Program-made: the position numbers and the translations under genes
From: a virus
Length of the DNA: 64,000 nt
Direction: 5' to 3' (one strand)
Virus record (IMG/VR): IMGVR_UViG_3300029784_000200
Part shown: piece by piece, positions 746 through 58,103 of the stretch
How the letters are laid out: each line of letters begins with the position of its first letter
Position numbering within the stretch: position 1 is the stretch's first letter
The notes under the pieces: generated by a model
Databases searched by the model: none
What the model saw: the letters and a program-made list of their open reading frames with translations, nothing else
Told to the model about the DNA's origin: nothing

Positions 746-764
746 GGTGTTCCCCGGGAACACC
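746..764. promoter_or_regulatory. 19-bp perfect palindrome GGTGTTCCCCGGGAACACC (copy 1 of 7)
   Basis: Exact inverted repeat, intergenic, upstream of the exonuclease gene start. Confidence 0.6.
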
Positions 765-780
765 CCCATTGTTTTCTTAT

Positions 781-803
781 AAAAGCGTCTTGCAGACGTT
801 TTT
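781..803 (-). terminator. Rho-independent terminator hairpin (GCGTCTTGCAGACGC) for gene 802-1116
   Basis: Stem-loop with T-tract on the minus strand, immediately 3' of the stop at 802-804. Confidence 0.6.
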
Positions 804-1116
804 ACAATTTCTCCACGAAAATCCGATATCCGTGGTATGCATAGCCGTCAGCTTCACCGCATCCTTCTGCATCCAAAATCGATGCGACAAAATTCTCCAA
901 CTCATCATAATCAAATTGCAGATATTTTGCAAAACTCGCACTAATGAATCCGATCGCGCTGGAATGTTTTTTTCTCGCAAAGCACTCCATAGGAAAAATC
1001 TCATCTTCCGTCAGATGATCCAGGATTCGTCGAATATCCGTTTTCGTCATGCACGCGTTTTCTGCCACTTCCACCAGATACATATCCACTACCTTTTCTT
1101 TTCGTTCATTTTCCAT
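802..1116 (-). CDS. hypothetical protein (104 aa)
   Basis: ORF with RBS AAAGGAGTAAAAAATG; terminator hairpin downstream; upstream CATACTGAAAG element and palindrome. Confidence 0.5.
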   Translation of the reverse strand: MENERKEKVVDMYLVEVAENACMTKTDIRRILDHLTEDEIFPMECFARKKHSSAIGFISASFAKYLQFDYDELENFVASILDAEGCGEADGYAYHGYRIFVEKL

Positions 1117-1226
1117 TTTTTACTCCTTTCGCAATGCCTTATCAATAACAACACTTTCAGTATGGCTCGCTTAAGTGACGATCCCAGTCAGTTTTTACAC
1201 ATCGGTTGCTCCGAGGCAGATAAGGG

Positions 1227-1245
1227 GGTGTTCCCGGAGAACACC
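1227..1245. promoter_or_regulatory. near-palindrome GGTGTTCCCGGAGAACACC (copy 2 of 7, imperfect centre)
   Basis: Sequence match to the GGTGTTCCCCGGGAACACC family, about 55 nt upstream of the CATACTGA element of the minus-strand gene 802-1116. Confidence 0.5.
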
Positions 1246-1335
1246 CTAACCATCAAAAAATATATCTTTTTTACCATCCCTGCGTCTCCATACTGACACT
1301 GAATCAAATGAAAAAAGAAATGGAGGTAAGAAAAA

Positions 1336-1665
1336 ATGAAACAGAAAAAAATCAACAGCCAGTTACAGTCTTATGTAACTGAAAGATTACGCGAGTGCGG
1401 CATTGCGTACCAACTGGAAGAGTGCGGCGATTACAGCGTTATCACACTTAATGCGCCGTCAGCTCTCTGGGCGGAAATTGTGCAGGATGCAAAATATCAG
1501 CTTCAGGCAGAAAAAGGTCAGGATGATTCCTGTTATCTGCCGGTTGTATCGATCCGCACTTTCCGAAATAACAAGACTATGCGACATCTGCAGGATGTGT
1601 TCGCTACGCATTGTTTTTTTATCCGCGAAGAGCAGGCTGAAATTCTGCAGTATTTGTACGCATAA
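1336..1665 (+). CDS. hypothetical protein (109 aa)
   Basis: ORF with RBS AATGGAGGTAAGAAAAAATG. Confidence 0.5.
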   Translation: MKQKKINSQLQSYVTERLRECGIAYQLEECGDYSVITLNAPSALWAEIVQDAKYQLQAEKGQDDSCYLPVVSIRTFRNNKTMRHLQDVFATHCFFIREEQAEILQYLYA

Positions 1666-1696
1666 TCGCAAAGTAATAAGAGAGGAGATTGTCGAA

Positions 1697-2152
1697 ATGA
1701 CAAAGAAGATAATTACAGAAGAACAAGTGATCAATCACATCCGGACCCATATGGATATCTGGTGTAAAAGTTATGGAAGCCATGTGTTGGCAAAGCATGT
1801 CAATATCCCGGAAAAGACCCTGCTAAGCCGCATAGGCACAACGGAAAATAATCATTTTATTAAAAGCGTCTCGTCGTTTTATGACGAGACAGATGGGCAG
1901 CAGATCATGGATCTGCTTCAAAGAGCGTTGGAGAGTGAAGCGCAGTACATCGCGAAATGGTGTAATTACAGCAAACGCGCATGGCTCGGCTTGAATTTTT
2001 ACGGGTTGCCAGATGGTATTACCGCCAAAGCATGCCGATATGACGCACTCAACAAGGTCTTCCCGGTAAGCCGGTTTGTCATTTTCCTATCCAAGCGGGA
2101 ACAGTACCCGTTTTACTTGGAAAATGCATACCCGGTATTTGATCAAGATTAA
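1697..2152 (+). CDS. hypothetical protein (151 aa)
   Basis: In-frame ATG at 1697 after RBS AGAGGAGATTGTCGAAATG. The longer track ORF 1403-2152 overlaps the upstream gene. Confidence 0.5.
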   Translation: MTKKIITEEQVINHIRTHMDIWCKSYGSHVLAKHVNIPEKTLLSRIGTTENNHFIKSVSSFYDETDGQQIMDLLQRALESEAQYIAKWCNYSKRAWLGLNFYGLPDGITAKACRYDALNKVFPVSRFVIFLSKREQYPFYLENAYPVFDQD

Positions 2153-2170
2153 CCGCACAGACAAATATAA

Positions 2171-6266: not shown

Positions 6267-6282
6267 AGTTTCACGTGAAACA
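6267..6282. promoter_or_regulatory. parS-like centromere site AGTTTCACGTGAAACA
   Basis: 15/16 match to the canonical ParB parS TGTTTCACGTGAAACA; perfect 14-bp palindrome; 180 bp upstream of parA. Confidence 0.6.
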
Positions 6283-6464: not shown

Positions 6465-7649
6465 ATGGAGGCAGTCATGAAGAAGCGTTTACCAACTGAC
6501 CACATTATTACGATCATCAACCAAAAAGGCGGGGTCGGGAAAACATCAAGCTGTACCCTGATGGCAACGCTGCTTGGATTAGCAGGTTACCAATGCCTTG
6601 TGATCGACAACGATTCCCAGGCAAATACCACGGCAACATTGTTGCCAGACATTGCGTCTGTCACTAAAAGCATTGTTGATATTTTTAGGATGAATACGCC
6701 AACAGCGGAAGAAGTAGCCGCCTGTATCTACCATACCCCATACCAGGGAGTTGATCTGATTCCATCCAGACCAGAACATCAAAGAACGGATGATTATTTA
6801 TATTCCCTCCTCGGACGTAAGGCGATCCACAAATTATTAAAACGGGCCATTAAACAAGTGGAAGAACACTATGATTACATTCTGATTGACACACATCCGG
6901 ATCTTGGCGGCTCTGTGCAGAATGCACTCTGCTGCAGTGATTACGTCTTGATTCCGGTAAAGCCGGACGGCTATTCTTACCAGGGCGTTACCCCCATTAT
7001 CAACCAGGTTCTGGATATCGCATCAGATGAAGATTTAAACCCCGATTTGGAACTGCTGGGTGTTTTTTTGACCTGTGCAGAGCCCAGAAATGCCGCGTAC
7101 CGCAAATTTTACTCCTATTACCAGAATACATTTGGGGACGATTTTATCCCCGTGAGCGTCCGTCTGGACCGCTCTGTATCTGCCGTATGCAATTTCTTAA
7201 TCCCACTACCATACCTGCTTGGATCATCCGATTACCAGGCTGGCGGTTCCTGGAAGGCAATCTACGACTATATCGAACTGATGAAATCTACGGAGATCAT
7301 AGGAGATGAAGACTATCTTGTATTGAGAGCGACCTTTGAGATTCTGGAACGGAATTTGGCGGTGCACATACCGTCCGGTGCATACGATAACCCGTACATA
7401 GCCCACATCACGCCGATATCAGGTTTAAGCGATACATGCGCCCCGTACGAAAATCACCCATACATGGAGTATTCAGCTATGCTGGATATCTTAAATCAGC
7501 AACAAGAATTACGTGACCGCATTCAGCAGTGCCTGCTCACCGCAGGTGACGCGACCAGAAACATTCGGTACTGCTCAGAAGACAGTGCGTTAAGCGAAAA
7601 ATACTCGTTTGTAAGGATCGCCGCTTTGAAACCGGCACAGGAGGTATAG
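6465..7649 (+). CDS. parA: ParA-family partition ATPase (394 aa, with C-terminal extension)
   Basis: Deviant Walker A NQKGGVGKTS; RBS AAATGGAGGCAGTCATG; followed 2 bp later by parB. Confidence 0.85.
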   Translation: MEAVMKKRLPTDHIITIINQKGGVGKTSSCTLMATLLGLAGYQCLVIDNDSQANTTATLLPDIASVTKSIVDIFRMNTPTAEEVAACIYHTPYQGVDLIPSRPEHQRTDDYLYSLLGRKAIHKLLKRAIKQVEEHYDYILIDTHPDLGGSVQNALCCSDYVLIPVKPDGYSYQGVTPIINQVLDIASDEDLNPDLELLGVFLTCAEPRNAAYRKFYSYYQNTFGDDFIPVSVRLDRSVSAVCNFLIPLPYLLGSSDYQAGGSWKAIYDYIELMKSTEIIGDEDYLVLRATFEILERNLAVHIPSGAYDNPYIAHITPISGLSDTCAPYENHPYMEYSAMLDILNQQQELRDRIQQCLLTAGDATRNIRYCSEDSALSEKYSFVRIAALKPAQEV

Positions 7650-7651: not shown

Positions 7652-8881
7652 ATGGGAAAAATCAAAAACCAGTTCAATATGGATCGATTAAACGCGGTAT
7701 CCGGAGGTGCGATGCCTTCTGCAAAGCAAGCGTTATCAGAAAAGAAACAACTTGATCAGAAGAATGCTTACGAAATCCTCAACATTCCGGTAGATCAGTT
7801 GCAGCCCATGTCTTATAACCGGGAAGTATACGAAGTTGATGACCTGGACTTTCTTGGCGCCACAATCAGCCAGTACGGCCTGGCCCAACCTTTAGTCGTC
7901 CAGCGCCAGCCAGGAACCGACAAATATAACATTGTTGCCGGTGAGCGTCGATACCAGAGCTATTTAAAAAGCAAGGCTGACGGCAAAGCTGCCGGACTAT
8001 ATCCAAACGGGCTTCCATGTCATGTATACCCGGAAAATATGAGTCCGGTGGATATTAAGATCATGCTCTTGATTACCAACGCAACTTCCAGGGCGCGTAC
8101 CGCTGAAACGCAGAGAAAAGAATTACAAGAACTGGTCTCTCTGTTTAACGAAGCAGAAGCATCCGGAACTACAATTGGATTTTCTTTAAAGGAGCTGGCT
8201 AAAAATCATTTAAAGATTGCGGAACGCCAATATCAGCGCTACATGAGTGCACTGCGCGTCATTCCGGAATTAAAGCAGTTTACGGATGCATCCGATGTTA
8301 TTTTAGCCGCTGCCATCGGTTCCAAGCCAGAAGACGTGCAAAGGGAAATTTATGCATACATGCAGGAACAACATTGTTCCATCGAAGATGCACATGAAGC
8401 GGTCAATGAAGAGTACGGAGCTTACAGGCAGCAATTACAGGCACTTCGCAAACAGGTCCGCACCCTGCAGCATGAAAAACAGCAATGGCTTAGCCAAAGC
8501 CGTGCGCAGGATGCCACGACTCCTGGTAAAGCGGAGGAAGCGAAATTAAATCTGGCGCGATCCACAGAGAAACTGGAGAAAACCAGGAAAGAGTTGGATA
8601 AGCTACAAGCTAATGCCGGTAGGATTGTTCGTTCTGGTATGCAAAAGAAGCTACACAAAAAGGAACCTTCACATACGTTAACGCAACCCACATCCGCCGC
8701 AGAAACCCAGAGCTGTCTTTCCGTTAAGGATGCCATCCGCCAGATGAATGCCGGACTTAATTCGGTTGGATTGCAGATGAAAGCTTGTGACGAAGAATCC
8801 GTAGAACAACTGAAACTAATCCGTGATCGACTTGATAAGATCATCAACGTTATTGAACCTCAAAATCAATCGATTTTTTAA
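7652..8881 (+). CDS. parB: ParB-family partition protein (409 aa, coiled-coil C-terminal half)
   Basis: ParB N-terminal domain with the IVAGERRYQS box; adjacent to parA. Confidence 0.8.
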   Translation: MGKIKNQFNMDRLNAVSGGAMPSAKQALSEKKQLDQKNAYEILNIPVDQLQPMSYNREVYEVDDLDFLGATISQYGLAQPLVVQRQPGTDKYNIVAGERRYQSYLKSKADGKAAGLYPNGLPCHVYPENMSPVDIKIMLLITNATSRARTAETQRKELQELVSLFNEAEASGTTIGFSLKELAKNHLKIAERQYQRYMSALRVIPELKQFTDASDVILAAAIGSKPEDVQREIYAYMQEQHCSIEDAHEAVNEEYGAYRQQLQALRKQVRTLQHEKQQWLSQSRAQDATTPGKAEEAKLNLARSTEKLEKTRKELDKLQANAGRIVRSGMQKKLHKKEPSHTLTQPTSAAETQSCLSVKDAIRQMNAGLNSVGLQMKACDEESVEQLKLIRDRLDKIINVIEPQNQSIF

Positions 8882-9357: not shown

Positions 9358-10443
9358 TTATGCAGTTGCGGTTTTCATCTGACACAGCTCCATGACGATT
9401 GTCCGGATCAGACCGCCAAGGGATTTCGCCTTATCAACAACAAAATGAACCGCATCAGACAGTTTATAATTTTGGTAGTACAAACGGAGCGCATCGATTA
9501 CAGTATCAATACCGAAATCCTGGGCGATGGTCAGACAATCATTTTTTACATCGCTCGTAAGATCTAAAAGAGGGAGCATCGTGGTCTGGTGCATTGGGTC
9601 GAGACAATCCCACAGATTGATATGATGCTGCCATAAATCACTGGCATTCCAGGTATGGATCATGTTATCTTGATAAATATCCGTATTGATATCACGAATG
9701 ATGTCATTGATTTCATCGATCTCATCAAAGATTGCCCGTTTTGCCTTAATACGAACCTGCTGTTTGATCTGTTTTGCGTCATAATTCTGCTGTAACTTAA
9801 TACAAATGGATTTTTTGAGATCCGGATTTACACGCTCGAATAAAGACCCGAAGCTTCCGTCCGCATCACAGGCTGCCTTGATGTCACATAATCTGCTGGA
9901 TACGGGAAAGCTCATAGCGATCTCATGAAGACCAATGCGCACACGATCAACAATTTTGGACGCACTAAAAGTCTGCTTGGTTGCAAAAACGATCATCGCG
10001 GTCAGTGAAGCACGTAAAACAGCGATGGCTTTAGCCCCCAATAAAACCTGCAGCAAGTCCCGATTGCAAACGAAATAGCCCTTGCCGCCTTCACCGCGAC
10101 GCTTATACATATCACCGATGTTTAAGATCTGCACGAAAACATATCCAGATTCCGGACGTCCGGTTACCTGAATGAAATCGCCCTGTTCCAGGATGTCAAG
10201 GGAGCGATATACAGTTTTTGTTGTGCAGGATAATTGTTCTGCCAGATCTTTGACAGATAAAAGATCCGTCAGGCCGGTATTAGAATTCGCATGAAACTGC
10301 AGAATCAGATAGAGATTTATCTGAGCGACCAAATATCGCTCATGCACATCTTCAGCTTTTTGGATCGTGCATTCTCTGCCGACAAGCTCAAGCCCGAGCA
10401 TTTTTGCTACTGCTGCATTCGATATATTAGCAAATGTCTTCAT
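9358..10443 (-). CDS. replication initiator, RepA_N-like winged-HTH protein (361 aa)
   Basis: N-terminal region YLILQFHANSNTGLTDLLSVKDLAEQLSCTTKTVYRSLDILEQGDFIQVTGRPESGYVFV resembles the RepA_N family of Firmicutes plasmid initiators. Adjacent to the iteron field. Confidence 0.5.
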   Translation of the reverse strand: MKTFANISNAAVAKMLGLELVGRECTIQKAEDVHERYLVAQINLYLILQFHANSNTGLTDLLSVKDLAEQLSCTTKTVYRSLDILEQGDFIQVTGRPESGYVFVQILNIGDMYKRRGEGGKGYFVCNRDLLQVLLGAKAIAVLRASLTAMIVFATKQTFSASKIVDRVRIGLHEIAMSFPVSSRLCDIKAACDADGSFGSLFERVNPDLKKSICIKLQQNYDAKQIKQQVRIKAKRAIFDEIDEINDIIRDINTDIYQDNMIHTWNASDLWQHHINLWDCLDPMHQTTMLPLLDLTSDVKNDCLTIAQDFGIDTVIDALRLYYQNYKLSDAVHFVVDKAKSLGGLIRTIVMELCQMKTATA

Positions 10444-12515: not shown

Positions 12516-12543
12516 ATTAAAACGATAATTATAGAGAAATAAG

Positions 12544-14373: not shown

Positions 14374-15348
14374 ATGCCATTGTTCTTCTTACCGCGAAAA
14401 AAAAGAATAACGGATCACACTGAAAATCCATTAAAGAACTCTGGAGATGATATCATGTGCAAAGAACTGTTTGTGCGGGATACTCTTGCAATGTATACCG
14501 TGCGGTTTCTGCCGGAGCAGCCGGCAAATTATAAACCGTGCGGAGATAACCCGGAAGCCGGATTAAAAGTATTGTCCGGAGTATTTCTTGGCTCATGCAT
14601 GGCATCCGATGGCATGGCTAAGAAAAGTTGGGAACAGAAGCGTGCGGCAAAATGCAATGCCAGTAGTGTCCACGCACTTGCTGTCTGGATGGCGCTAAAA
14701 GAACTGAAACGAAAAAATGCGCCAGTTGATGTATTGCCTGATATCTGCAGTCAGACCATAAAAAAATGCGTCAAAAAATATAACGTTCCCTGCGATAATG
14801 TATTTGGATTTGACAGTGCGCTGGCAGTCGGTGGATGTATAGCCGGGGCGTTTTCTGACGACCCAAAAGAAGTGATCCGGATGGCTTCTATGAGTTCTTA
14901 TCATCCATCCTGGCATCCGGAGGGCATGCGCGGCAGCATTGTTTCGGCTGTGTGCGTGTGGATGGCGCTCCATCAAGCCACAATCGAAGAAATTACACAA
15001 TATGCCTGTAATCATTACGGAAAAGACACTGCACCGGTGGAATACTGTTTTTCACATGGCCGCATTACCGTCGACATGACTATGGATGATCTGCTTGGGA
15101 CTCCATCCTATCAGCTTACGGATAACAGTTGCATCATTGTTGTTCCGGAAGCGCTGTTTAACCTAATCCATTCTGACCGGTTCACATCCGCAATCCGCAC
15201 TGCCCAGACCTATCCGTGTGATAAACAAAGCGTACCGTCATTAACGGGAGCGTTAGCCGGAGCGCTGTACAATGGTGTTCCCGGGGAACTCCTTAAAAAA
15301 TATAAAGATCATTTTCCGGTCGAATTGCGAGCCAGACTCACGTCATAA
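14374..15348 (+). CDS. ADP-ribosylglycohydrolase (ARH/DraG)-like protein (324 aa)
   Basis: C-terminal TGALAGALYNGVPGEL resembles the conserved GAIAGAxYG motif of the ARH family. The N-terminal match is weak. RBS GAGGGAGGTTACTCACATG. Confidence 0.4.
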   Translation: MPLFFLPRKKRITDHTENPLKNSGDDIMCKELFVRDTLAMYTVRFLPEQPANYKPCGDNPEAGLKVLSGVFLGSCMASDGMAKKSWEQKRAAKCNASSVHALAVWMALKELKRKNAPVDVLPDICSQTIKKCVKKYNVPCDNVFGFDSALAVGGCIAGAFSDDPKEVIRMASMSSYHPSWHPEGMRGSIVSAVCVWMALHQATIEEITQYACNHYGKDTAPVEYCFSHGRITVDMTMDDLLGTPSYQLTDNSCIIVVPEALFNLIHSDRFTSAIRTAQTYPCDKQSVPSLTGALAGALYNGVPGELLKKYKDHFPVELRARLTS

Positions 15349-17600: not shown

Positions 17601-17619
17601 GGTGTTCCCGGGGAACACC
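17601..17619. promoter_or_regulatory. 19-bp palindrome GGTGTTCCCGGGGAACACC (copy 3 of 7)
   Basis: About 45 nt upstream of RBS/start at 17652-17664. Confidence 0.55.
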
Positions 17620-24882: not shown

Positions 24883-24901
24883 GGTGTTCCCCGGGAACAC
24901 C
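24883..24901. promoter_or_regulatory. 19-bp palindrome GGTGTTCCCCGGGAACACC (copy 4 of 7)
   Basis: About 45 nt upstream of the CATACTGA element at 24946. Confidence 0.55.
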
Positions 24902-31135: not shown

Positions 31136-31154
31136 GGTGTTCCCGGGGAACACC
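31136..31154. promoter_or_regulatory. 19-bp palindrome GGTGTTCCCGGGGAACACC (copy 5 of 7)
   Basis: About 90 nt upstream of the ATPase start at 31043, between convergent/divergent genes. Confidence 0.55.
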
Positions 31155-33461: not shown

Positions 33462-33484
33462 AAGATTCCTCCTTTGTGTAAGTT

Positions 33485-36535: not shown

Positions 36536-36554
36536 GGTGTTCCCCGGGAACACC
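36536..36554. promoter_or_regulatory. 19-bp palindrome GGTGTTCCCCGGGAACACC (copy 6 of 7)
   Basis: Immediately after the stop of 36103-36531, about 90 nt upstream of CCATACTGT at 36645. Confidence 0.55.
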
Positions 36555-45524: not shown

Positions 45525-45572
45525 CGTTGCACCGCAATTGTCAAAAAATATGTTTCAATTCTGGATTAACAT

Positions 45573-45626: not shown

Positions 45627-45699
45627 CCTTGTCGTAGAGATCCAAGATGATAGGAATCAACGATGCGTCAGCCATAGAAAATTCTTTGAGGAATTTAGT

Positions 45700-45788
45700 A
45701 TCCGCCCCGTGCGTACGGGGATGAACCTGATCGGACGCTTCGGATCGGTCTCACGTAAAAATCCGCCCCGTGCGTACGGGGATGCCCC
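45700..45788 (+). CRISPR. CRISPR array 1d: 2 repeats, directly upstream of cas8e
   Basis: ATCCGCCCCGTGCGTACGGGGATGAACC at 45700 and ATCCGCCCCGTGCGTACGGGGATGCCCC at 45761. Confidence 0.8.
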
Positions 45789-45871
45789 CATAGAAGCACA
45801 AGGATGACAGTTAATAACAGTCTTTTCCATGTACATGGGGAATCAATTATAACAAAAGAAAGGAAAAAATC

Positions 45872-48256: not shown

Positions 48257-48289
48257 ACACCACTATTTTATAAGAAAAGGAGAAAAATT

Positions 48290-49525
48290 ATGAATACCAA
48301 AGGACTTTTTATGGCTGTACATGTCATCCAGAGCTACCCGAGCAACAATTTAAACAGAGGAGAAGACGGATCACCGAAAAGCTGCATTTTCGGCGGCGTC
48401 AGAAGAAGCCGCGTCTCCAGTCAGTGCATCAAGCGTAACGCACGCTTAGCCATGTACGACGTCATTTCTGAAAATGATGAAAACGGCATGGGTATCCGCA
48501 CAAAGACCATGCCGGCCATCATCGCAGCGTTTCTGGAAAAATGGGCCGAGTCAGCGGAAAATGTAACATGGACAGACGATGAGATGGAGAAACAGAAATA
48601 CCATGAAGCGGCAAAAGAATTCGACATCCGTGACGTATCCCATGCCCTGACCGCGGTCGGCATGCAGATTGACGCGAAAAAGAACCATACCTTAAAAAGT
48701 GTTTACTGTACGAACGTGAAGCAGTGTGTGGCATTTGCAAAAACGATGCTGGAGATCGGAAGCAAGCGTGCAGGAGAAGATAAGGACGGTAACTTAAAGT
48801 TAAATCCGTACGATACAAAAACAGAACTTCCGGCCCTGGACGACGCATTGGATTCCTCGATTTCCCTGGACATCATGATGTTCGGAAGAATGCAGGCAGG
48901 AAGACCCATCCATAACGTGGAAGCCTGCATCCAGGTAGGACATGAGTTCTCTACGCATCGCGCGGAAGAAGAATTTGACTACTTCACTGCCGTGGATGAT
49001 GCAAAAGACATGTTAAAGGAGCAGGGCTCCGCGCATCTGGATACCCAGGAGTTCACCTCCGCAACCATGTACCGTTACAGCAGTGTGGATCTTGGCGCCA
49101 TGTACCAGGCCATGAAGAACAACGGTTCCGATATGGGCCTGGCCATGTTAGCAAAGGAGTGGGTACGTGCTTTTGCATTGGCAGCGCCGACCGGAAAACA
49201 GAATTCCTTCGCAGCGACCACCCTGCCGGTCTACGTTTTTGTAGAGTTCCGCAATGACGCACCGGTAAGCTTTGCGAACGCTTTTGAAAAAGCGGTAGAA
49301 GCCGGAACAGACGGATATGAGGGCGCATCCGTAAAAGCGTTCGAGGAACGTGTCAGACGCTCTGATGCAATCGGATGGCTTCATGCACCGGTCGCAAGAT
49401 TTTTAGTTAGCGAACAGGCATCTTCCCTGCAGGACTGCACCCAGCCGAACTTCAATGCTTTGCTGGACCATGTCGAGGAAACCGTAAAAGATGCGGTATC
49501 CGGTATGGAAAAGGAGCGTTCATGA
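48290..49525 (+). CDS. cas7e: Cas7e (Cse4/CasC) Cascade backbone subunit
   Basis: FGGVRRSRVSSQCIKR, FDYFTAVDD...EQGSAHLDTQEFTSATMYRY and ANAFEKAVEAG are collinear with E. coli CasC; RBS AAAGGAGAAAAATTATG. Confidence 0.9.
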   Translation: MNTKGLFMAVHVIQSYPSNNLNRGEDGSPKSCIFGGVRRSRVSSQCIKRNARLAMYDVISENDENGMGIRTKTMPAIIAAFLEKWAESAENVTWTDDEMEKQKYHEAAKEFDIRDVSHALTAVGMQIDAKKNHTLKSVYCTNVKQCVAFAKTMLEIGSKRAGEDKDGNLKLNPYDTKTELPALDDALDSSISLDIMMFGRMQAGRPIHNVEACIQVGHEFSTHRAEEEFDYFTAVDDAKDMLKEQGSAHLDTQEFTSATMYRYSSVDLGAMYQAMKNNGSDMGLAMLAKEWVRAFALAAPTGKQNSFAATTLPVYVFVEFRNDAPVSFANAFEKAVEAGTDGYEGASVKAFEERVRRSDAIGWLHAPVARFLVSEQASSLQDCTQPNFNALLDHVEETVKDAVSGMEKERS

Positions 49526-50262
49526 GTACCCTGTTATTCCGTCTCGCCGCGCCGATGCAGGCGTGGGGGACGGAACCGAGGTTCGACAAATGGCTCCGTA
49601 CGGGCATGGAGCCAAGTAAAAGCGGAGTGATCGGCATGGTTGCTTCCGCCATGGGGATCGACCGGACGGACGATGAAGCACTCCAAAACCTGGTAAAACG
49701 CTTACGGTTCGGCGTCTGCGTGGACCGGGAGGGAACCGTCATTACGGACTATCATGCGACCCGCGTGGTCCCATATCCGGAATGCAGCTACAGGGATCTT
49801 TTTTCCGACAATATCGTGATACGCGGAAAGAAGATCCCGGACACGGCCATTTCCAAATATGACTATAAAAAGTATTACTTATCCGATGCGGCGTTCACCG
49901 TTGGACTGGAGTGCAAGGATGACTCTCTGTTACATACCATCCTGGAAGCACTGCGGCACCCAAAACGAATGCTGTACCTTGGACGGAAATCCTGTCCACT
50001 TATGGAAGAACTGGATGGTGTCATTGTAAAGAAAGCCGTGCTGCCGGCATTAAAGGAACACGCCGAAGCCAAGGCAGATGGACGGTACCATACCTGCAGG
50101 ATCATCTATGACGCGGAAAAGGGAGAACGCGGGACACTGGTAAACGATGAGCCGGTTTCATTCAATGCCCATAAAAAAGTCTGGGCTCCCCGCATGGCAG
50201 CAGAGACCATGGTGGAGATATTCCCACAGTCCGAACAGCACGACCCATTTGCATTTGTATAA
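49522..50262 (+). CDS. cas5e: Cas5e (CasD)
   Basis: MSTLLFRLAAPMQAWGTEPRF and YLGRKSCPL parallel CasD LAGPMQAWGQPTFEG and YLGRRSCPL; ATGA overlap with cas7e. Confidence 0.9.
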   Translation: MSTLLFRLAAPMQAWGTEPRFDKWLRTGMEPSKSGVIGMVASAMGIDRTDDEALQNLVKRLRFGVCVDREGTVITDYHATRVVPYPECSYRDLFSDNIVIRGKKIPDTAISKYDYKKYYLSDAAFTVGLECKDDSLLHTILEALRHPKRMLYLGRKSCPLMEELDGVIVKKAVLPALKEHAEAKADGRYHTCRIIYDAEKGERGTLVNDEPVSFNAHKKVWAPRMAAETMVEIFPQSEQHDPFAFV

Positions 50263-50265
50263 GGA

Positions 50266-50290
50266 GCCCCGTAGATACGGGGAGAAAGAA
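50266..50290 (+). other. solo CRISPR-repeat-like hairpin between cas5e and cas6e (GCCCCGTAGATACGGGGAGAAAG)
   Basis: Same CCCCG...CGGGG stem as the array repeats, with 6-nt loop and A-rich 3' side. Confidence 0.45.
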
Positions 50291-50297
50291 GGAACGT

Positions 50298-50936
50298 ATG
50301 TATTACTTAACCAGGATCGAACTGGATCCGTATAAAAAACTAACACAGCTGGCTTTAAAAAACGCCAACATGATCCATGGAACCATTGAAAAGGTCTTTG
50401 GAAACGAAGCGGAACGGAAGCTCTGGCGTATCGACAGCCTGCGTGGCAGACGGTATCTGATGATCGTCAGCCGGACGCTGCCGGATTTTACACCGTTACT
50501 TGCACAGTTTGCGCCGGACGGCGCCAAGAGCCAGTCAAAATCTTATGACGCCTTTCTGGAAAGCATCAAAGACGGAAGCCAGTGGAACTTTAAGCTTTGC
50601 GGGGTACCGCTCGTGTGCAGGAAGACAGAAAGCAGCCCGAACGGGAAGCGGTTCCCGCTCTTGAAGCCGGAGGAACAGATGGAGTGGCTTATAAAGAAGG
50701 GAAATCTCCACGGATTCACGGTAAATCCGGAACACATCCGGATCACGGATACCGGCCCGTCCAAGCTTTCAAAAGGCGCAGGAGAAGACCATTACGAATT
50801 CCGAATCCGGAAAGTAATATTTGACGGTATCCTGACCGTGACGGACCCGGAAAAATTCCGGGATGCCATGGTAAACGGAATCGGCAAGGAGCGGGCATTC
50901 GGAGGTGGTATGATCACGGTGGTACCGCGCCCGTAG
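50298..50936 (+). CDS. cas6e: Cas6e (CasE) pre-crRNA endoribonuclease
   Basis: MYYLTRIELDPYKK...HGTIEKVFG and C-terminal GIGKERAFGGGMITVVP parallel CasE (…GIGPAKSMGCGLLSLAPL). Confidence 0.85.
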   Translation: MYYLTRIELDPYKKLTQLALKNANMIHGTIEKVFGNEAERKLWRIDSLRGRRYLMIVSRTLPDFTPLLAQFAPDGAKSQSKSYDAFLESIKDGSQWNFKLCGVPLVCRKTESSPNGKRFPLLKPEEQMEWLIKKGNLHGFTVNPEHIRITDTGPSKLSKGAGEDHYEFRIRKVIFDGILTVTDPEKFRDAMVNGIGKERAFGGGMITVVPRP

Positions 50937-52581: not shown

Positions 52582-52866
52582 ATGAACAGACAGGAGTTAG
52601 TAAACGCAATCGCAGCAAACAGTGGGATCAGCAAAAAAGACATCGACGAAGTTTTAAAAAACTTTGTGACCGTTGTCATGGATGACGTAGCCGCAGGAAA
52701 CAAAGTGCAGCTGATCGGTTTTGGTACCTTTGAAAGCACAACCAGAGCTGCACGCGAGATGCGTAACCCGAGAACCGGTGAAGTGAGCATGTATCCGGAG
52801 TCCCGTAACGCCAAATTCAAACCGTCCAAAGTATTCAAGGACAAGGTCAATAACTCACGACTGTAG
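52582..52866 (+). CDS. hup: HU/IHF-family DNA-binding protein
   Basis: MNRQELVNAIAANSGISKKDIDEVL...RNPRTGE...SKVFKD, canonical HU fold sequence. Confidence 0.85.
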   Translation: MNRQELVNAIAANSGISKKDIDEVLKNFVTVVMDDVAAGNKVQLIGFGTFESTTRAAREMRNPRTGEVSMYPESRNAKFKPSKVFKDKVNNSRL

Positions 52867-52899
52867 TCGCAAGCTTGAAGCGATTATGTTTTCATTACC

Positions 52900-53206
52900 G
52901 TTTCAAGTTTTGTGATGGAGGGACCGGCGAGAGCCGTGATTGATTAGCCGGCACAGTCCCGCCACCGGCTGGGCCGTGTTAGGCGTTATGCAGGAAATTA
53001 GGCACTCCGGGGTGCTCCACAAGCCCCGGACCCTGCGGCATCCGGTTAAACATCCCTGAGAGTACGGGGAAGTGCCGGATGTGTTCAAACCCTGCAGAAC
53101 ATCGGCGATGTGGACCACCGTCCTTCGGGGCGAGAAGCCGTACGGGCGAAGCTCTGCTTTGCCGGTACGGGAATGCGTAAGCATAGCAAAGAAAAGGAGG
53201 CACCAT
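52900..53206 (+). ncRNA. candidate omegaRNA scaffold of IscB (GC-rich structured region immediately 5' of iscB; includes IS-end-like segment 52913-52982)
   Basis: About 300 nt, noncoding, GC-rich with multiple hairpins (e.g. GGCACTCCGGGGTGCTCC and CCGTCCTTCGGGGCG). IscB omegaRNAs are encoded upstream of and overlapping the iscB 5' end. The ORF track start at 53072 has no RBS, whereas 53207 has AAGGAGG. Confidence 0.4.
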
Positions 53207-54553
53207 ATGGTAGCCGTATTAAGTAAGACCGGCATCCGTCTGATGCCGACATCCAGTTACCGGGCAAGGAAACTCCTTGCCAAAAAGAAAGCAGTCATCT
53301 GCGGGTACCGCCCGTTTACCATCCGTCTCACAGAACGTGAGACCGGGGACGTACAGCCGGTGGAACTTGCAGTTGATACAGGATACTTCCATGTGGGGAA
53401 CAGCTTAAAAACAGCGAAGCACGAATTAGCTGCCGTTGAGATCCGTGCCCTAATGGACGAGAAGCGAAGATATGACGACCGGCGCCAGTACCGCAGGATG
53501 CGGCGCTCAAGGCTCCGCTACCGTGCCCCGCGGTTTGATAACCGCAGGCGGCCGGAGGGATGGCTCGCGCCGTCCATCCAGGGACGCATGGAACAGAACC
53601 TGGCATTTTTAAGACGGATCCTATCCGTCGTGCCGGTCACCCGTATCGTTATGGAGATGGGACAGTTTGATACCCAGGTATTAAAAGCCGTGGAGGAGGG
53701 AAGGCCCCTTCCGGAAGGAACGGATTACCAGCAGGGAGAGCGTTACGGGATTGCCACCTTACGGGAGGCAGTCTTTACCCGTGACAATTACACCTGCCAG
53801 TGCTGCCAAAAGACGGTCTGTGATGGCGCGATCCTTCATGTCCACCACATCGTATACCGGAGCCAGGGAGGGACCGACCGGATGGGGAACCTGATCACGG
53901 TCTGTGAGAAATGCCATACCCCGAAGAACCATAAACCGGGAGGAAAGCTGTACAAATGGAAACCGACGGTCAAAAGCTTCAAGGGGGCAACGTTCATGAC
54001 TGCCGTCCGGTGGATCGTGTACCGGTCCGTGAAGAAGTCTTTCCCGGATGTGGATGTAAGAATCACATACGGGGCAAAAACAAAGCTGCAGCGACGAGCA
54101 ATGGATATCACCAAGAGTCATGTCAATGACGCTTATGTCATGGGAGACTTCCATCCGAAGCACCGGGCCCGTCCGGTCATCCTGCAGAAGAAACGGCGGA
54201 ATAATCGGATCCTGGAAAAGTTCTATGATGCAAAATACATAGACACCCGGGATGGAAGTAAAAAGACCGGACAGCAGCTCTTTAACGGACGTACGAACCG
54301 GAACCATAACACGGATACGGAAAACCTGCGGCTATACCGTGGGATGAAATTATCAAAAGGCAGACGGGCAATCCGTACCACAAGGTACAGGATTCAGCCT
54401 CATGATATCCTTGTATATCAGGGACAGGAAATGGAAGCGTCCGGCTGCCATAACAAAGGAACCAGAGTCATGACGACTGCAAAGAAATCCCTTCCAATTG
54501 GAAAAGTCCGCGTCAGACGGTATTCCGGAGGGTATTATGCGGTCGCAGAATAA
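53207..54553 (+). CDS. iscB: IscB (OMEGA RNA-guided nuclease; PLMP - RuvC-I - Arg-rich bridge helix - HNH - RuvC-III), 448 aa
   Basis: N-terminal GIRLMPT (PLMP motif); LAVDTGYFHVG (RuvC-I-like); RRQYRRMRRSRLRYRAPRFDNRRR (bridge helix); HNH CQCCQK...HVHHIVYRSQGGTD...NLITVCEKCH; size typical of IscB. Confidence 0.75.
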   Translation: MVAVLSKTGIRLMPTSSYRARKLLAKKKAVICGYRPFTIRLTERETGDVQPVELAVDTGYFHVGNSLKTAKHELAAVEIRALMDEKRRYDDRRQYRRMRRSRLRYRAPRFDNRRRPEGWLAPSIQGRMEQNLAFLRRILSVVPVTRIVMEMGQFDTQVLKAVEEGRPLPEGTDYQQGERYGIATLREAVFTRDNYTCQCCQKTVCDGAILHVHHIVYRSQGGTDRMGNLITVCEKCHTPKNHKPGGKLYKWKPTVKSFKGATFMTAVRWIVYRSVKKSFPDVDVRITYGAKTKLQRRAMDITKSHVNDAYVMGDFHPKHRARPVILQKKRRNNRILEKFYDAKYIDTRDGSKKTGQQLFNGRTNRNHNTDTENLRLYRGMKLSKGRRAIRTTRYRIQPHDILVYQGQEMEASGCHNKGTRVMTTAKKSLPIGKVRVRRYSGGYYAVAE

Positions 54554-56443: not shown

Positions 56444-56478
56444 CTAAGAAACAAAAATCCTAATTGCAAACCATCACA

Positions 56479-56509
56479 AAAATCCCGGATGAATCCATCC
56501 GGGATTTTT
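56479..56509 (+). terminator. Rho-independent terminator
   Basis: AAAATCCCGGATGAATCCATCCGGGATTTTT. Confidence 0.65.
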
Positions 56510-56702
56510 GTATGCAGACCCCGCAAAAGCGAGGAGGAAAAGAATGGATGATAACGTCAATCCATTCCCGTGGATAAAAGAAAATATAGTCAGCAGCTCC
56601 GCCGGAGGTTCATCCCTGCACAGGCAGGGCGTATGTGTCGTATCACAGGAGACTACTGCCAAAATCTACCCATGCGCGAACGGACATTGCGACAGGTGCG
56701 GA

Positions 56703-57392
56703 TCATCCGCAGTCAGAAGATACCAGTATTTTTCCGTGCTTCTGCAGTTCCTCTACACGTCCAAGCGGGAGCATTTTTTTGACGGAGATCTCATAAGCTA
56801 CCCGCACGTCGTACCGTCCGTCCGCCTGAGCTTTTACATACTGCCGGCTCTGGGCCCGTCCGGTCAGCTCTACGCAATCACCAGGCTTTAGACCCGCATA
56901 CCGTTCTGCGTCTTCCTGCCAGCAGATACAGGGAATGTAGTCGGAGTGGTAGTCATCCGGAGCACTCCGGTTCACTGCCAGTAAAAAATCCGTGATCTTA
57001 CGGCCAGACGGAGTCCGCCGGAATGCGGAGGGGCGGCAGACCGTCCCGACCAGATGAATATAATTGGTATCCGGCCCGAAAACATCCACGTGGCCGGGAT
57101 ATTCGTCACAGAACTTCATGGATGTGGCGAATACAAACAGCTCCAGCCGGCGCTTCAGACCGTCAAAGCGGTTTCTGGAACGAAATTCACCAACAAAAGA
57201 AACTTCACGACCGGTGCAGTCGCGCGTTTCTCCGTCCAGTACCGAGGCGGGGACTACTACCTGTAGGGTATCAAAAATACCGGAATTGCGCATGACGGAT
57301 ACATAAGTCACATAGCATGTACCGCCATCTTCACGCTCTTCCAGATAAAACGGATCGCGGATGACGCCGCGTAATCGAACTGTGTTAGTCAT
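56703..57392 (-). CDS. tandem OB-fold single-stranded-DNA-binding (SSB)-like protein, 230 aa
   Basis: Start MTNTVRLRGV at 57392 after AGAAAAGAGGAAAATT; GRKITDFLLAVNR...DYIPCICWQEDAERYAGLKPGDCVELTGR matches the SSB OB-fold pattern. No acidic tail. Confidence 0.6.
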   Translation of the reverse strand: MTNTVRLRGVIRDPFYLEEREDGGTCYVTYVSVMRNSGIFDTLQVVVPASVLDGETRDCTGREVSFVGEFRSRNRFDGLKRRLELFVFATSMKFCDEYPGHVDVFGPDTNYIHLVGTVCRPSAFRRTPSGRKITDFLLAVNRSAPDDYHSDYIPCICWQEDAERYAGLKPGDCVELTGRAQSRQYVKAQADGRYDVRVAYEISVKKMLPLGRVEELQKHGKILVSSDCG

Positions 57393-57484
57393 AATTTTCC
57401 TCTTTTCTTTCGTGATTAGATTATTTGTAGTTACAAATGACCGGTTACAGTCATTTTTAGCGGGATATAACCGCGCCCTTAACC

Positions 57485-57874
57485 GGGCATCCCCGTACAT
57501 ACGGGGCTAACTAATATGAGCGAGCCAACATGGTATGTCGGGGTGCATCCCCGCGTATACGGGGCAGATTGGCAAAAATTTTCCAGTCCACTCGATAATC
57601 ATCGGTGCATCCCCGTGCGCACGGGGCAGATAACAGATTTCTTACGAGGCACACTTCCTGTCTTGGCTCATCCCCGTGTATACGGGGCAGATTTTTGTCG
57701 ATACCGATAGGCCCTGAACGATGTGGATTCATCCCCGCGCGCGGGGGCAGATTCAATTCCCGGATCATGAGTCATGCCACCATTCGGTTCATCCCCGTGC
57801 ATACGGGGCAGATGCAATTTTGCTTTCACCTAACTGCTGTACGTACGGCTCATCCCCGTACATACGGGGCGGAT
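57485..57874 (-). CRISPR. CRISPR array 2: 7 repeats of the same I-E-like family, inverted relative to array 1
   Basis: Plus-strand GGCTCATCCCCGTACATACGGGGCAGAT is the reverse complement of ATCTGCCCCGTATGTACGGGGATGAGCC. Repeats at ~57485, 57542, 57603, 57664, 57725, 57786 and 57847. Confidence 0.9.
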
Positions 57875-57946
57875 ACTAAATCCTCAAAAAAGTCCTCTGG
57901 GTCGATGGATAAGCGGTTTCTTTTGTCCCGGCTTCCTACGATAAAA

Positions 57947-57998
57947 TCAGTATGTATCATTTCTTTTAGATATATTTTTGCGGATAACACTTTTTGGT
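57947..57998 (-). promoter_or_regulatory. leader promoter of array 2: element box - N20 - CATACTGA (copy 14)
   Basis: Reverse complement of 57976-57998 is the 23-bp box; TCAGTATG at 57947-57954; leader end GAGGATTTAGTAT matches the array 1 leaders. Confidence 0.6.
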
Positions 57999-58084
57999 CA
58001 AAAAACAGACGGATACAAAATCCTTCTGCTATTCAGAAAATATCCTCATCCGGACAATGCATCCGGCTATTCACACAAAAACAG

Positions 58085-58103
58085 GGTGTTACCGGGGAAC
58101 ACC
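58085..58103. promoter_or_regulatory. near-palindrome GGTGTTACCGGGGAACACC (copy 7 of 7)
   Basis: About 60 nt upstream of CCATACTGA at 58150. Confidence 0.5.

What the first reader, a model, noticed from the sequence alone, without database searches (positions are those of the whole stretch)
746..58103. Seven copies of a 19-bp perfect palindrome GGTGTTCCCCGGGAACACC in promoter-proximal intergenic positions
Exact or near-exact copies at 746, 1227, 17601, 24883, 31136, 36536 and 58085. All are intergenic, typically 45-100 nt upstream of a CATACTGA element. A 19-20-bp perfect inverted repeat is the signature of a dimeric regulator's operator, or a recombination/REP-like element. This set of genes seems complementary to the set carrying the 23-bp box, suggesting two regulons on one element.
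Basis: seen in the sequence. Interest (0 to 1): 0.55.

Follow-up and report, generated by a model that had tools for sequence, protein, structure and literature searches.

The report
Dispersed parS-like sites for a second ParB
The repeated 19-bp palindrome is most likely the docking site (a parS-like centromere sequence) of a previously undescribed ParB partition protein carried by a family of very large plasmid-like elements of gut Clostridia. It is a new member of a well-known kind of system, not a new kind of regulator or a selfish repeat.

Summary
The palindrome is real. GGTGTTCCC-N-GGGAACACC occurs 8 times in the window, not 7 (15274 was missed). Five copies are perfect and three have one arm mismatch; nothing else scores closer than 5 mismatches, and 0.02 matches are expected by chance.

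It is not a host-wide REP. 596 Gb of reference genomes gave 36 hits, mostly chance or coding for a transposase motif. It is specific to a family of large human and mouse gut Clostridia elements.

Its best-supported identity is the binding site of a second ParB, "ParB-2". ParB-2 has a ParB/Noc-like CTPase domain and HTH, and its gene lies about 8.6 kb beyond the window's right end in the closest relatives. In every relative examined except one decayed integrated copy, one to three copies lie just upstream of parA-2. The human-type and L169 elements have a further copy between parB-2 and jetA.

More distant ParB-2 relatives carry matching variants: TGTTCAC-S-GTGAACA and TGTTCGC-S-GCGAACA. One is a small contig (4.9 kb held) carrying parA, parB and a Rep_3 gene, whose only two copies abut parA. 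The sequence is a hybrid of parS (TGTTTCAC-GTGAAACA) and the Noc site (TATTTCCC-GGGAAATA).

Placement near promoters suggests an added KorB-like regulatory role, which is unproven.

The parts
746..764 (.). Palindrome copy 1 (perfect, centre C). It lies between the stop of a 104-aa ORF (802-1116, -) and the start (708, -) of a 5'-3' exonuclease gene. No CATACTG element lies between them.
   Evidence: the arms are identical in 9 orthologous loci whose flanks are 85-100% identical, and the centre is flipped to G in 3 of them
1227..1245 (.). Palindrome copy 2 (one arm mismatch, GGTGTTCCCGGAGAACACC). It lies between divergent CATACTG promoters at 1164 (-) and 1289 (+).
   Evidence: the same mismatched version is kept in all 7 orthologous loci
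15274..15292 (.). It lies inside the 3' end of the ADP-ribosylglycohydrolase ORF 14374-15348, where it encodes GVPGEL.
   Evidence: conserved with the same mismatch in L056:3328
17601..17619 (.). Palindrome copy 4 (perfect, centre G). It lies 53 nt downstream of the CATACTG at 17541, upstream of a gene for a choline-binding-repeat protein.
   Evidence: arms identical and centre flipped to C in 4 orthologs
24883..24901 (.). Palindrome copy 5 (perfect, centre C). It follows a hairpin plus T-run terminator-like sequence that I read by eye at about 24810-24845. It lies 49 nt upstream of the CATACTG at 24951, the promoter of the PIN-domain protein gene 25001-26659.
   Evidence: arms identical and centre flipped in 4 orthologs
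31136..31154 (.). Palindrome copy 6 (perfect, centre G). It begins 9 nt after the stop of the minus-strand helicase gene 31164-33548 and lies 92 nt upstream of the next minus-strand gene (30465-31043). No CATACTG is nearby.
36536..36554 (.). Palindrome copy 7 (perfect, centre C). It begins 4 nt after the stop of ORF 36103-36531. A terminator-like hairpin (about 36579-36604) with a T-run on the + strand follows, and then the CATACTG at 36646.
   Evidence: the hairpin appears as its minus-strand reading, and the plus-strand T-run is read from the sequence
58085..58103 (.). Palindrome copy 8 (one mismatch, GGTGTTACC arm). It lies 55 nt upstream of the CATACTG at 58159 (PARP-like gene 58210-59535) and 130 nt from the divergent class-A promoter at 57954 (-).
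6267..6282 (.). Canonical parS-like site AGTTTCACGTGAAACA (15 of 16 matches to TGTTTCACGTGAAACA), 183 nt upstream of parA-1. It is probably the site of a different ParB: the window's ParB-1 or the host ParB. It therefore argues that the 19-mer belongs to another protein.
   Evidence: conserved in L087 and L122
6465..8881 (+). parA-1 (6465-7649) and parB-1 (7652-8881), the partition operon inside the window. ParB-1 is not detectably similar to the ParB-2 proteins that travel with the palindrome.

Best explanation
The palindrome, whose full consensus is roughly ARG-GGTGTTCCC-S-GGGAACACC-CYT, is the specific DNA site on which dimers of a second ParB-family protein (ParB-2) nucleate. It is a parS-type site.

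ParB-2 is about 366-385 aa. It has a ParB/Noc-type CTPase N-domain with a GxRRxRA box, an HTH DNA-binding domain and a helical C-terminal region. It is encoded with a Walker-type ParA-2 just outside the window: parA-2 starts 8.6 kb beyond the last shared base in the closest relatives.

Inferred mechanism, by analogy with ParB, Noc and KorB: ParB-2 binds each palindrome as a dimer, probably closes into a CTP-dependent clamp, and spreads onto neighbouring DNA. ParA-2 then segregates the resulting complexes. The two copies in front of the parA-2 promoter would give autoregulation.

The other copies are scattered about every 7 kb in intergenic DNA, often 40-90 bp upstream of the element's CATACTG promoters. 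They provide extra loading points on a very large replicon. They may also let ParB-2 damp nearby promoters as KorB does on RK2, or load the JetABC condensin-like complex encoded right after parB-2.

Shown here: the site is real, conserved, element-specific, and linked to and co-varying with the ParB-2 clade. Inferred: binding, CTP clamp behaviour, partition, regulation.
For: (1) Sequence, not just structure, is conserved. Eight window copies have at most one mismatch and nothing lies between 2 and 4 mismatches. In orthologous sites of relatives the arms are 575/576 identical, against 90.7% for 200 nt of flanks.

(2) The same 19-mer occurs in mouse-gut elements whose ParA is only 31% identical to parA-1. 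There it sits in the rep/parA intergenic region.

(3) A distinct parAB-2 operon is flanked by the motif in almost every element that has it. Human: L062 1737, 1830, 4125; L148 3194, 3287, 5583; L089 4239, 4332, 1946; L127 4351, 4442; L173 9413, 9506. Mouse: L031 4951, 5238; L034 3940, 4113. Others: L167 8742, 8861; L168 8405, 8643, 8878; L169 8881, 11336.

(4) The site co-varies with the protein. The P0039, P0042 and P0048 proteins go with TGTTCAC-S-GTGAACA. The P0046/P0047 clade goes with TGTTCGC-S-GCGAACA. P0041 goes with TGTTCCC-N-GGGAACA with other outer bases. P0023 and P0038 go with mixed half-sites.

(5) On a 4.9-kb contig that holds only parA, parB, a Rep_3 gene and one cut ORF (L172), the only two copies lie 38 and 76 nt upstream of parA. 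ParB is the only plausible binder there.

(6) CAC-type relatives keep one copy inside parB itself. From my own knowledge, one B. subtilis parS lies in spo0J.

(7) ParB-2 is a genuine ParB/Noc relative. Pfam finds ParB_N and HTH_ParB. phmmer to PDB gives Noc at E 2e-8 across the CTPase and HTH domains. The GxRRxRA box is present. An AlphaFold model (pLDDT 79) best matches Noc, ParB and KorB.

(8) The site is a hybrid of parS TGTTTCAC-GTGAAACA and NBS TATTTCCC-GGGAAATA (PMC7383237). The CCC/CAC variation falls at the very position that separates NBS from parS.

(9) Synteny places parAB-2 on the same element. L173 is 99.9% identical to window 62631-63716 and carries parA-2 8.6 kb further on. L089 shows the same at 95% identity.

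(10) The site has no strand polarity: the centre is C 48% and G 48%.
Against: ParB-2 is not in the window. The window departs from its two closest relatives after 63716, so presence of parAB-2 on this exact molecule is inferred.

No binding data exist. ParB-2 lacks the canonical LG[KR]GL ParA-interaction motif. Its residues at the positions that read parS or NBS in ParB and Noc differ from both (my reading of the alignments), so specificity cannot be derived from the known code.

The odd centre, giving 15 bp between the outer TGTT...AACA instead of 16, differs from parS and NBS. The association could in principle reflect a regulator that always controls parAB-2 rather than ParB-2 itself.

One integrated relative (L160/L161) has ParB-2 but only a degenerate site; its parA is split, which suggests decay.

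An identical 19-mer inside a 27-bp palindrome is conserved at one chromosomal locus of several Lachnospiraceae with no par genes in the 8 kb seen.
Confidence: 0.7

Rival explanations
1. The palindrome is the operator of a separate dimeric transcription factor. This could be one of the element's Cro/C1-type HTH proteins and would define a regulon of CATACTG promoters.
For: A palindrome with no strand polarity fits a dimer. Five of eight window copies lie within about 40-90 bp of a CATACTG promoter or just downstream of one. In relatives it often abuts the 23-bp promoter box. Small HTH_3 genes follow parB-2 in several distant relatives: L162, L164, L165, L166, L170 and L171.
Against: Distances to promoters are not fixed (35-130 nt). 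Three window copies have no promoter nearby. No HTH gene of the window has a homologue in the mouse loci that share the identical site. In the human-type elements and in the held part of the small Rep_3 contig L172, no HTH gene accompanies parAB-2, yet the sites are there. Near-total invariance of all 18 arm positions is unusual for a transcription-factor regulon but normal for parS and KorB sites.
Confidence: 0.12
2. The palindrome is the binding site of a host protein, such as a Lachnospiraceae regulator or nucleoid protein, which the elements exploit.
For: Identical 19-mers occur in elements whose proteins have diverged strongly. One conserved chromosomal copy, TAGAGGTGTTCCCSGGGAACACCTCTA, follows the malic-enzyme gene in several Lachnospiraceae genomes and metagenome contigs: L004, L007, L011, L015, L066 and L107.
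Against: Site variants track the ParB-2 clade rather than any host signal. Copies cluster at parAB-2. Reference genomes carry at most one chromosomal copy, which could be coincidence or a single unrelated operator.
Confidence: 0.07
3. The palindrome works as a nucleic-acid hairpin: a transcription terminator or insulator, an RNA stability or processing element, or a single-strand DNA signal.
For: It can form an 8-11 bp stem with a 3-nt loop. Single-strand DNA folding energy is -7.6 to -10.9 kcal/mol, z -3.6 to -5.1. Several copies lie 4-40 nt after a stop codon. The frequent C/G flips of the centre base between orthologs (14 of 32 comparisons) suggest the hairpin or cruciform does form now and then.
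Against: The exact sequence is conserved across sites and across divergent elements, and no compensatory stem variants were seen. A structural signal would not need that. The flanks are T-rich 5' and A-rich 3', the reverse of an intrinsic terminator. The two copies the scan flags as terminator-like are on the strand opposite to the flanking genes. Two copies sit between divergent promoters, where no transcript is expected. Canonical terminators lie beside the copies at 24883 and 36536.
Confidence: 0.05
4. The palindrome is a REP- or MITE-like selfish repeat spread by a transposase.
For: It is short, multi-copy, intergenic and palindromic. IS200/IS605-type genes are present: IscB at 53072-54553 and a TnpB-like fragment at 29681-30277.
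Against: No sequenced genome carries it at high copy; 596 Gb gave 36 hits. Unrelated hits are the coding sequence of the transposase motif VFPGNT. No conservation extends beyond about 25 bp and no target duplications are seen. Orthologous positions are stable across relatives of 85-99% identity. Copies are not next to the IS genes.
Confidence: 0.03

Closest known systems
Chromosomal ParB (Spo0J)-parS, consensus TGTTTCAC-GTGAAACA
   Same: The binder is a ParB-family protein with a CTPase N-domain and an HTH, paired with a ParA. The site is an invariant palindrome sharing the outer TGTT...AACA. Several near-identical copies are dispersed over tens of kb. Some relatives keep a copy inside parB itself.
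   Different: The half-site is 7 bp plus a free centre base (15 bp core, 19-25 bp in all), not 8+8. The inner triplet is CCC rather than CAC. ParB-2 lacks the LG[KR]GL motif. Copies avoid coding DNA (7 of 8 intergenic). The carrier is a plasmid-like element that also has a canonical parS and another ParB.
Noc-NBS of Firmicutes, consensus TATTTCCC-GGGAAATA (PMC7383237)
   Same: Noc is the best sequence and fold match of ParB-2 in the PDB. The site shares the TTCCC...GGGAA core, including CCCGGG. There are many dispersed copies.
   Different: Noc has no ParA partner and, from the literature, acts through membrane binding. ParB-2 is always encoded next to a ParA. The outer bases are parS-like (TG, not TA) and the spacing is odd. 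The specificity residues Q173/K179/K184/R201 are not reproduced (my reading of the alignment).
KorB-OB of IncP plasmid RK2
   Same: KorB is a ParB-family CTP clamp that serves both partition (with IncC) and global gene silencing. It acts from 12 binding sites on RK2, reaching target promoters from distal sites (PMC11790492). From my own knowledge, the sites are odd-length palindromes with a central C/G and are scattered over the plasmid. KorB is among the fold matches.
   Different: There is no evidence yet that ParB-2 represses anything, and no KorA-like partner has been identified. The host is Gram-positive and the site sequence is unrelated. Several copies lie between co-directional genes with no promoter.
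Dispersed centromere sites of phage-plasmid N15 (from my own knowledge, not checked here)
   Same: A few identical inverted-repeat centromere sites are scattered over a large extrachromosomal element, some in promoter regions where the partition protein affects expression.
   Different: N15 uses a SopB-type protein with a different site, and has four copies only.

Membership tests
parS-type site of a ParABS partition system | A short, near-invariant palindromic DNA site present in one or several copies | tested here: met
   Eight copies have at most one mismatch and the next best has 5. Arms are 575/576 identical across orthologs.
parS-type site of a ParABS partition system | A cognate ParB with a CTPase-fold N-domain (GxRRxRA box) and an HTH DNA-binding domain | tested here: met
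   ParB-2 of relatives has Pfam ParB_N and HTH_ParB, a PDB phmmer match to Noc at E 2e-8, a GARR[NT]RA box and fold matches to Noc, ParB and KorB. It is not encoded inside the window.
parS-type site of a ParABS partition system | Site physically linked to a parA-parB operon | tested here: met
   One to three copies lie within about 300-400 nt upstream of parA-2 in L031, L034, L062, L089, L127, L148, L165, L166, L167, L168, L169, L172 and L173. In L171 the two copies lie about 0.9-1.2 kb upstream, flanking a metallophosphatase gene. In L170 the only copy is inside parB. A further copy lies between parB-2 and jetA in the human-type elements (L062, L089, L148) and in L169.
parS-type site of a ParABS partition system | Site sequence co-varies with the ParB lineage | tested here: met
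   CCC, CAC and CGC inner triplets and differing outer bases follow the ParB-2 subclades. The CGC pair P0046/P0047 is 71% identical to each other and at most 42% identical to the rest.
parS-type site of a ParABS partition system | N-terminal ParA-interaction motif (L/F/I)G(K/R)G(L/F/I), as defined in PMC12704722 | tested here: not met
   The motif is absent from all 29 ParB-2 homologues. A different conserved basic N-terminus (MRDxxSGRNxTLKKIANKQ) is present, and it is unstructured in the model.
parS-type site of a ParABS partition system | Direct, specific ParB binding and plasmid stabilisation | not testable with these tools
   Needs EMSA or BLI, ChIP-seq and plasmid-loss assays.
KorB-like global operator (partition protein doubling as repressor) | Multiple sites dispersed over the replicon at variable distance from promoters | tested here: met
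   Eight copies lie in 64 kb and more lie outside. Five are 43-91 nt upstream or 53 nt downstream of CATACTG elements. The family-wide gap distribution is mostly 35-80 nt with a tail to about 135.
KorB-like global operator (partition protein doubling as repressor) | Transcriptional repression by the bound ParB, with a clamp-locking partner (KorA or TrbA) | not testable with these tools
   No expression data are available and no partner was sought.
REP element / RAYT system | Hundreds of copies spread over the host genome, with an associated Y1 transposase | tested here: not met
   596 Gb of genomes gave 36 hits and no Clostridial genome has more than 2. No Y1 transposase was found among the window ORFs scanned.
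Intrinsic (Rho-independent) terminator | GC-rich hairpin followed by a U-run on the transcribed strand | tested here: not met
   The 3' flank is A-rich and the 5' flank T-rich. Scan hits at 31135 and 36554 are on the non-transcribed strand.

The most novel reading that the evidence does not exclude
ParB-2 and its dispersed palindromes form a KorB-like integrated control system for giant gut-Clostridia plasmids. One CTP clamp would segregate the element with ParA-2, tune many CATACTG promoters from nearby loading sites, and load the plasmid's own JetABC (Wadjet-like, apparently without the JetD nuclease) as a private condensin. That would give a plasmid a chromosome-style ParB-SMC organising system.
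Probability: 0.15. Interest if true: 0.75.

Novelty: new member of a known kind. Interest (0 to 1): 0.42.

Why it matters
If confirmed, this defines a new ParB/parS specificity class. It is an odd-spaced hybrid of parS and the Noc site, with natural CCC, CAC and CGC variants.

That is useful for understanding how ParB-family proteins change DNA specificity. It could also supply orthogonal ParB/parS pairs for DNA labelling.

It also helps annotation. The elements are very large, abundant and unnamed in human gut metagenomes, with hundreds of near-identical copies of their ParB genes in public assemblies. They carry two partition systems, a Cascade without Cas3, IscB and a JetABC operon.

The promoter-proximal scatter of sites offers a testable Gram-positive counterpart to KorB-type long-range silencing.

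Tried and rejected
1. Megablast of 20 kb of the window against the phage and plasmid collections found nothing.

2. A viral-contig search with ParB-2 found no relative.

3. I first suspected the window's own ParB-1. I rejected it as the likely binder for three reasons. It is not alignable with the ParB-2 proteins that accompany the identical site in mouse elements. A canonical parS lies in front of parA-1. And ParB-1 homologues are absent from the distant relatives that carry site variants.

4. I checked whether the CCCGGG core marks a restriction-type signal. CCCGGG is not depleted elsewhere: 21 sites against about 13 expected.

5. I tried to read ParB-2 specificity from the four ParB/Noc specificity residues of PMC7383237. 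The equivalent residues are different, so no prediction was possible.

6. Small ORFs flanking site 1227 and other palindrome-adjacent ORFs gave no DNA-binding Pfam hits.

7. The high-GC genome and metagenome hits looked at first like a repeat in an Actinomycetota MAG. They are copies of an IS transposase gene encoding VFPGNT.

8. Full-text search for the motif in 8 million papers returned nothing. A search for plasmid ParB-JetABC links found nothing specific.

Full report
**Observation.**
A search for GGTGTTCCCCGGGAACACC with up to 3 mismatches finds eight places in the window: 746, 1227, 15274, 17601, 24883, 31136, 36536 and 58085. Shuffled sequence gives 0.02 matches. Ignoring the centre base, five copies are perfect and three have one arm mismatch. 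The next best 19-mer in 64 kb has five mismatches. The family is therefore sharply bounded, with no degenerate members.

The motif is 9+1+9; the centre is C in three copies and G in five. The other seven are intergenic when genes are read from promoters, ribosome-binding sites and long ORFs.

Four copies lie 43-91 nt upstream of a CATACTG element: 1227 (which serves two divergent promoters), 24883, 36536 and 58085. The copy at 17601 lies 53 nt downstream of one. The copies at 746, 31136 and 15274 have none nearby.

**What the window is.**
Coding is purine-rich with Firmicute-type ribosome-binding sites. Genes include:
- parA (6465-7649), parB (7652-8881) and an HTH Rep-like gene (9358-10443, -) beside 210-nt repeats;
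- an NAD-dependent ligase, a topoisomerase, and UvrD- and DEAD-type helicases;
- a type I-E Cascade without Cas3, IscB with its HEARO RNA, and PARP- and ARH-like enzymes.

Most genes are preceded by CATACTG(A). About half of these promoters also carry a 23-bp box, CCAAAAAGTGTTATCCGCAAAAA, 20 nt upstream. Nothing similar is present in the phage or plasmid collections.

Metagenome contigs 85-99% identical to the window are common in human gut samples. Cluster members of its ParB genes lie on contigs of up to 220-383 kb. The window is thus part of a very large, unnamed, plasmid-like element of gut Clostridia.

**Is it a genome-wide repeat?**
No. An exact scan of one genome for each of 185,579 species (596 Gb) gave 36 stretches.
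- The high-GC hits that I inspected, including seven in one Actinomycetota MAG, lie in coding sequence. Most are copies of a transposase gene in which the 19-mer encodes VFPGNT.
- Four hits are one orthologous chromosomal locus, downstream of a malic-enzyme gene in Lachnospiraceae.
- Four are mouse-gut element contigs: L019, L031, L034 and L037.

About 100 of its 120 loci belong to the same element family and fall into about 23 distinct site contexts.

**Properties of the site.**
- Across about 90 non-redundant contexts the palindrome extends weakly to ARG-GGTGTTCCC-S-GGGAACACC-CYT.
- The centre is C 48%, G 48% and occasionally A or T, so the site has no polarity.
- The 5' flank is T-rich and the 3' flank A-rich, the opposite of a terminator.
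- Between orthologous sites the 18 arm positions are 575/576 identical, while 200 nt of flank are 90.7% identical. This includes the seven orthologs of the imperfect 1227 copy, which were not selected by the search.
- The centre base differs in 14 of 32 comparisons, nearly always C to G or back. That is what loop inversion of a hairpin or cruciform would produce, and it shows the centre is unconstrained.

Conservation of exact sequence rather than mere pairing, at all sites and in very divergent elements, calls for a sequence-specific protein.

**Link to a second partition system.**
The mouse contigs L031 and L034 share with the window only a ParA (31% identity) and, in L031, a Rep-like protein. 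Their ParB (385 aa, ParB_N plus HTH_ParB) cannot be aligned with the window's ParB-1. Both contigs have two palindromes just upstream of parA.

The window has a canonical parS, AGTTTCACGTGAAACA, 183 nt upstream of its own parA. This site is conserved in relatives.

Searching all fetched loci with the mouse proteins revealed a second operon, parAB-2 (ParA 62% and ParB 57% identical to the mouse proteins). It is in the human-gut loci L062, L089, L127 and L148 and in L173. In each of these loci two palindromes about 93 nt apart sit in front of the parA-2 promoter. Where the held sequence extends past parB-2 (L062, L089, L148), a third sits between parB-2 and the next gene.

L173 carries a protein identical to window 62633-63679 and is 99.9% identical to window 62631-63716. 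Its parA-2 lies 8.6 kb further on. L089 shows the same arrangement at 95% identity. The window departs from both relatives after 63716, so the exact distance in this molecule is unknown.

**Co-variation.**
A protein search with ParB-2 found 49 homologues. I fetched contexts for eleven of them.
- Homologues at 57-73% identity carry the same site in front of parA-2. L167 has two copies, L169 has one in front plus one after parB-2, and L168 has three with mixed CCC/CAC halves.
- P0039 (L162) has seven copies of TGTTCAC-S-GTGAACA in 21.6 kb.
- P0042 (L170) has that variant once, inside parB.
- P0048 (L172) sits on a 4.9-kb contig that holds only parA, parB, a Rep_3 gene and one cut ORF. It has exactly two copies, 38 and 76 nt upstream of parA.
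- P0046 and P0047, 71% identical to each other, both have TGTTCGC-S-GCGAACA.
- P0041 (L164) has four copies of TGTTCCC-N-GGGAACA with different outer bases.
- P0038 (L165) has two asymmetric copies in front of parA.
- L162, L164 and L170 each keep one copy inside parB, where it encodes VHGEQ.
- An integrated, decaying copy (L160/L161) with a split parA has only one degenerate site.

The recognition-helix region differs between the subclades.

**The protein.**
ParB-2 matches Noc, Spo0J/ParB and KorB chains by sequence across the CTPase domain and the HTH; the best is Noc at E 2e-8. It keeps a GxRRxRA box but lacks the LG[KR]GL ParA-binding motif. An AlphaFold model (pLDDT 79) best matches Noc, ParB and KorB structures.

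The site itself reads as a hybrid of parS TGTTTCAC-GTGAAACA and the Noc site TATTTCCC-GGGAAATA (PMC7383237). It has parS-like outer TG, an NBS-like inner CCC, one T fewer per half and a free centre base. The CCC/CAC difference among relatives falls at the position that separates NBS from parS.

**Interpretation.**
The best-supported reading is that the palindrome is the parS-type site of ParB-2 (confidence about 0.7). Binding, CTP-clamp behaviour and partition are inferred from family membership.

The scatter of sites is about one per 7 kb, in intergenic DNA and often just upstream of promoters or directly abutting the 23-bp box. This recalls KorB and its 12 binding sites on RK2, which serve both partition and long-range silencing (PMC11790492). 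That added role is plausible but untested.

In many relatives parAB-2 is followed directly by jetA, jetB and jetC, with no recognisable jetD. This raises the possibility that ParB-2 also loads an element-encoded condensin.

**Rivals.**
- A separate HTH regulator, a host factor, an RNA or DNA hairpin and a REP-like repeat each explain part of the picture.
- None explains the clustering at parAB-2, the co-variation with the ParB-2 lineage, or the L172 case.
- The terminator idea is contradicted by the flank composition, by strand and by copies between divergent promoters.

**Novelty.**
No paper in the searchable library contains the motif. This is a new member, with a new specificity class, of the known ParB/parS kind. 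It is of moderate interest, and more so if the KorB-like or condensin-loading roles prove true.

Noticed in passing
window 6267-6282: A canonical chromosomal-type parS (AGTTTCACGTGAAACA, 15 of 16 matches) lies 183 nt upstream of parA-1 and is conserved in relatives L087 and L122. The element therefore seems to carry two partition systems with different sites. Only the N-domain of ParB-1 resembles known ParBs, so the host ParB might use this site instead.
   Followed up: partly
window 43900-45870 and about 57800-57954 (-): There are four small type I-E CRISPR arrays with a 61-nt period and repeat about CTGCCCCGTATACACGGGGATGAACC. Each sits behind its own 23-bp-box/CATACTG promoter and a roughly 100-nt conserved leader. 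A fifth such promoter plus leader lies on the minus strand at 57954.
   Followed up: partly
window 45872-50936: A type I-E Cascade operon is present: Cse1-Cse2 fusion of 794 aa, Cas7, Cas5 and Cas6e. The window has no cas3, cas1 or cas2. This may be a nuclease-free, plasmid-borne Cascade.
   Followed up: no
window 52846-54553: A HEARO (IscB guide) RNA at 52846-53118 passes the Rfam gathering score (103 bits). It is followed by an IscB gene (RRXRR plus HNH, 53072-54553). A TnpB-like fragment lies at 29681-30277.
   Followed up: no
whole window, e.g. 4154(-), 14340, 20630, 33502(-), 37954, 41485, 52480: The element has its own promoter grammar. A conserved CATACTG(A) lies about 20-60 nt before the ribosome-binding site of most genes. 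At about 13 promoters a 23-bp box, CCAAAAAGTGTTATCCGCAAAAA, lies exactly 20 nt upstream. There is no sigma-70-like -35 element. The box shares GTGTT..CCG with the palindrome half-site; I do not know whether that means anything.
   Followed up: partly
window 22176-23438: A 420-aa protein resembles only the N-terminal part of the bacterial RNA polymerase beta' subunit (Pfam RNA_pol_Rpb1_1; about 30% identity to beta' residues). It is not a full polymerase subunit, and could be a decoy or a factor that modifies transcription.
   Followed up: partly
window 11636-12528 and 17244-17478: A 210-nt tandem repeat (4.2 copies, 72% matches) lies beside the Rep-like HTH gene 9358-10443 and may be iterons or an origin. 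A perfect 61-nt repeat (3.9 copies) lies just upstream of the promoter and palindrome at 17541-17619.
   Followed up: no
L148:5675-7865; L165, L167, L168, L169 downstream of parB-2: parAB-2 is followed directly by jetA, jetB and jetC (Wadjet type I models, E down to 0). No recognisable jetD lies in the next genes. This would be a plasmid-encoded SMC-like complex next to a ParB.
   Followed up: partly
L004:3352, L007:1514, L011:2485, L015:1679, L066:4432, L107:1951: The same 19-mer sits inside a 27-bp palindrome, TAGAGGTGTTCCCSGGGAACACCTCTA. It is conserved at one chromosomal locus, just after a malic-enzyme gene, in several Lachnospiraceae, with no par genes in the 8 kb held. L015 has a second hairpin reusing the GGGAACACC arm. 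This is unexplained.
   Followed up: partly
L005, L016, L027-L029, L033, L035, L020, L023, L135: The unrelated high-GC hits to the 19-mer that I inspected are almost all coding sequence. Most are copies of an IS transposase gene in which it encodes the motif VFPGNT. This accounts for the seven hits in one Actinomycetota MAG.
   Followed up: yes
orthologs of window 746, 17601, 24883, 31136: The centre base of the palindrome flips between C and G in 14 of 32 ortholog comparisons, while the arms never change. This is far above the roughly 9% divergence of the flanks and looks like hairpin or cruciform-mediated loop inversion.
   Followed up: partly
L162:10903, L164:11356, L170:3651: In the CAC-type relatives one copy of the site lies inside the parB gene itself, in the linker region, where it encodes VHGEQ. 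From my own knowledge, this echoes the parS inside B. subtilis spo0J.
   Followed up: yes
window 63717-64000: The window stops matching its two closest relatives (L173 at 99.9%, L089 at 95%) exactly at 63716, just after the stop of ORF 62633-63679. This may be an insertion or a variable region that runs off the window.
   Followed up: partly
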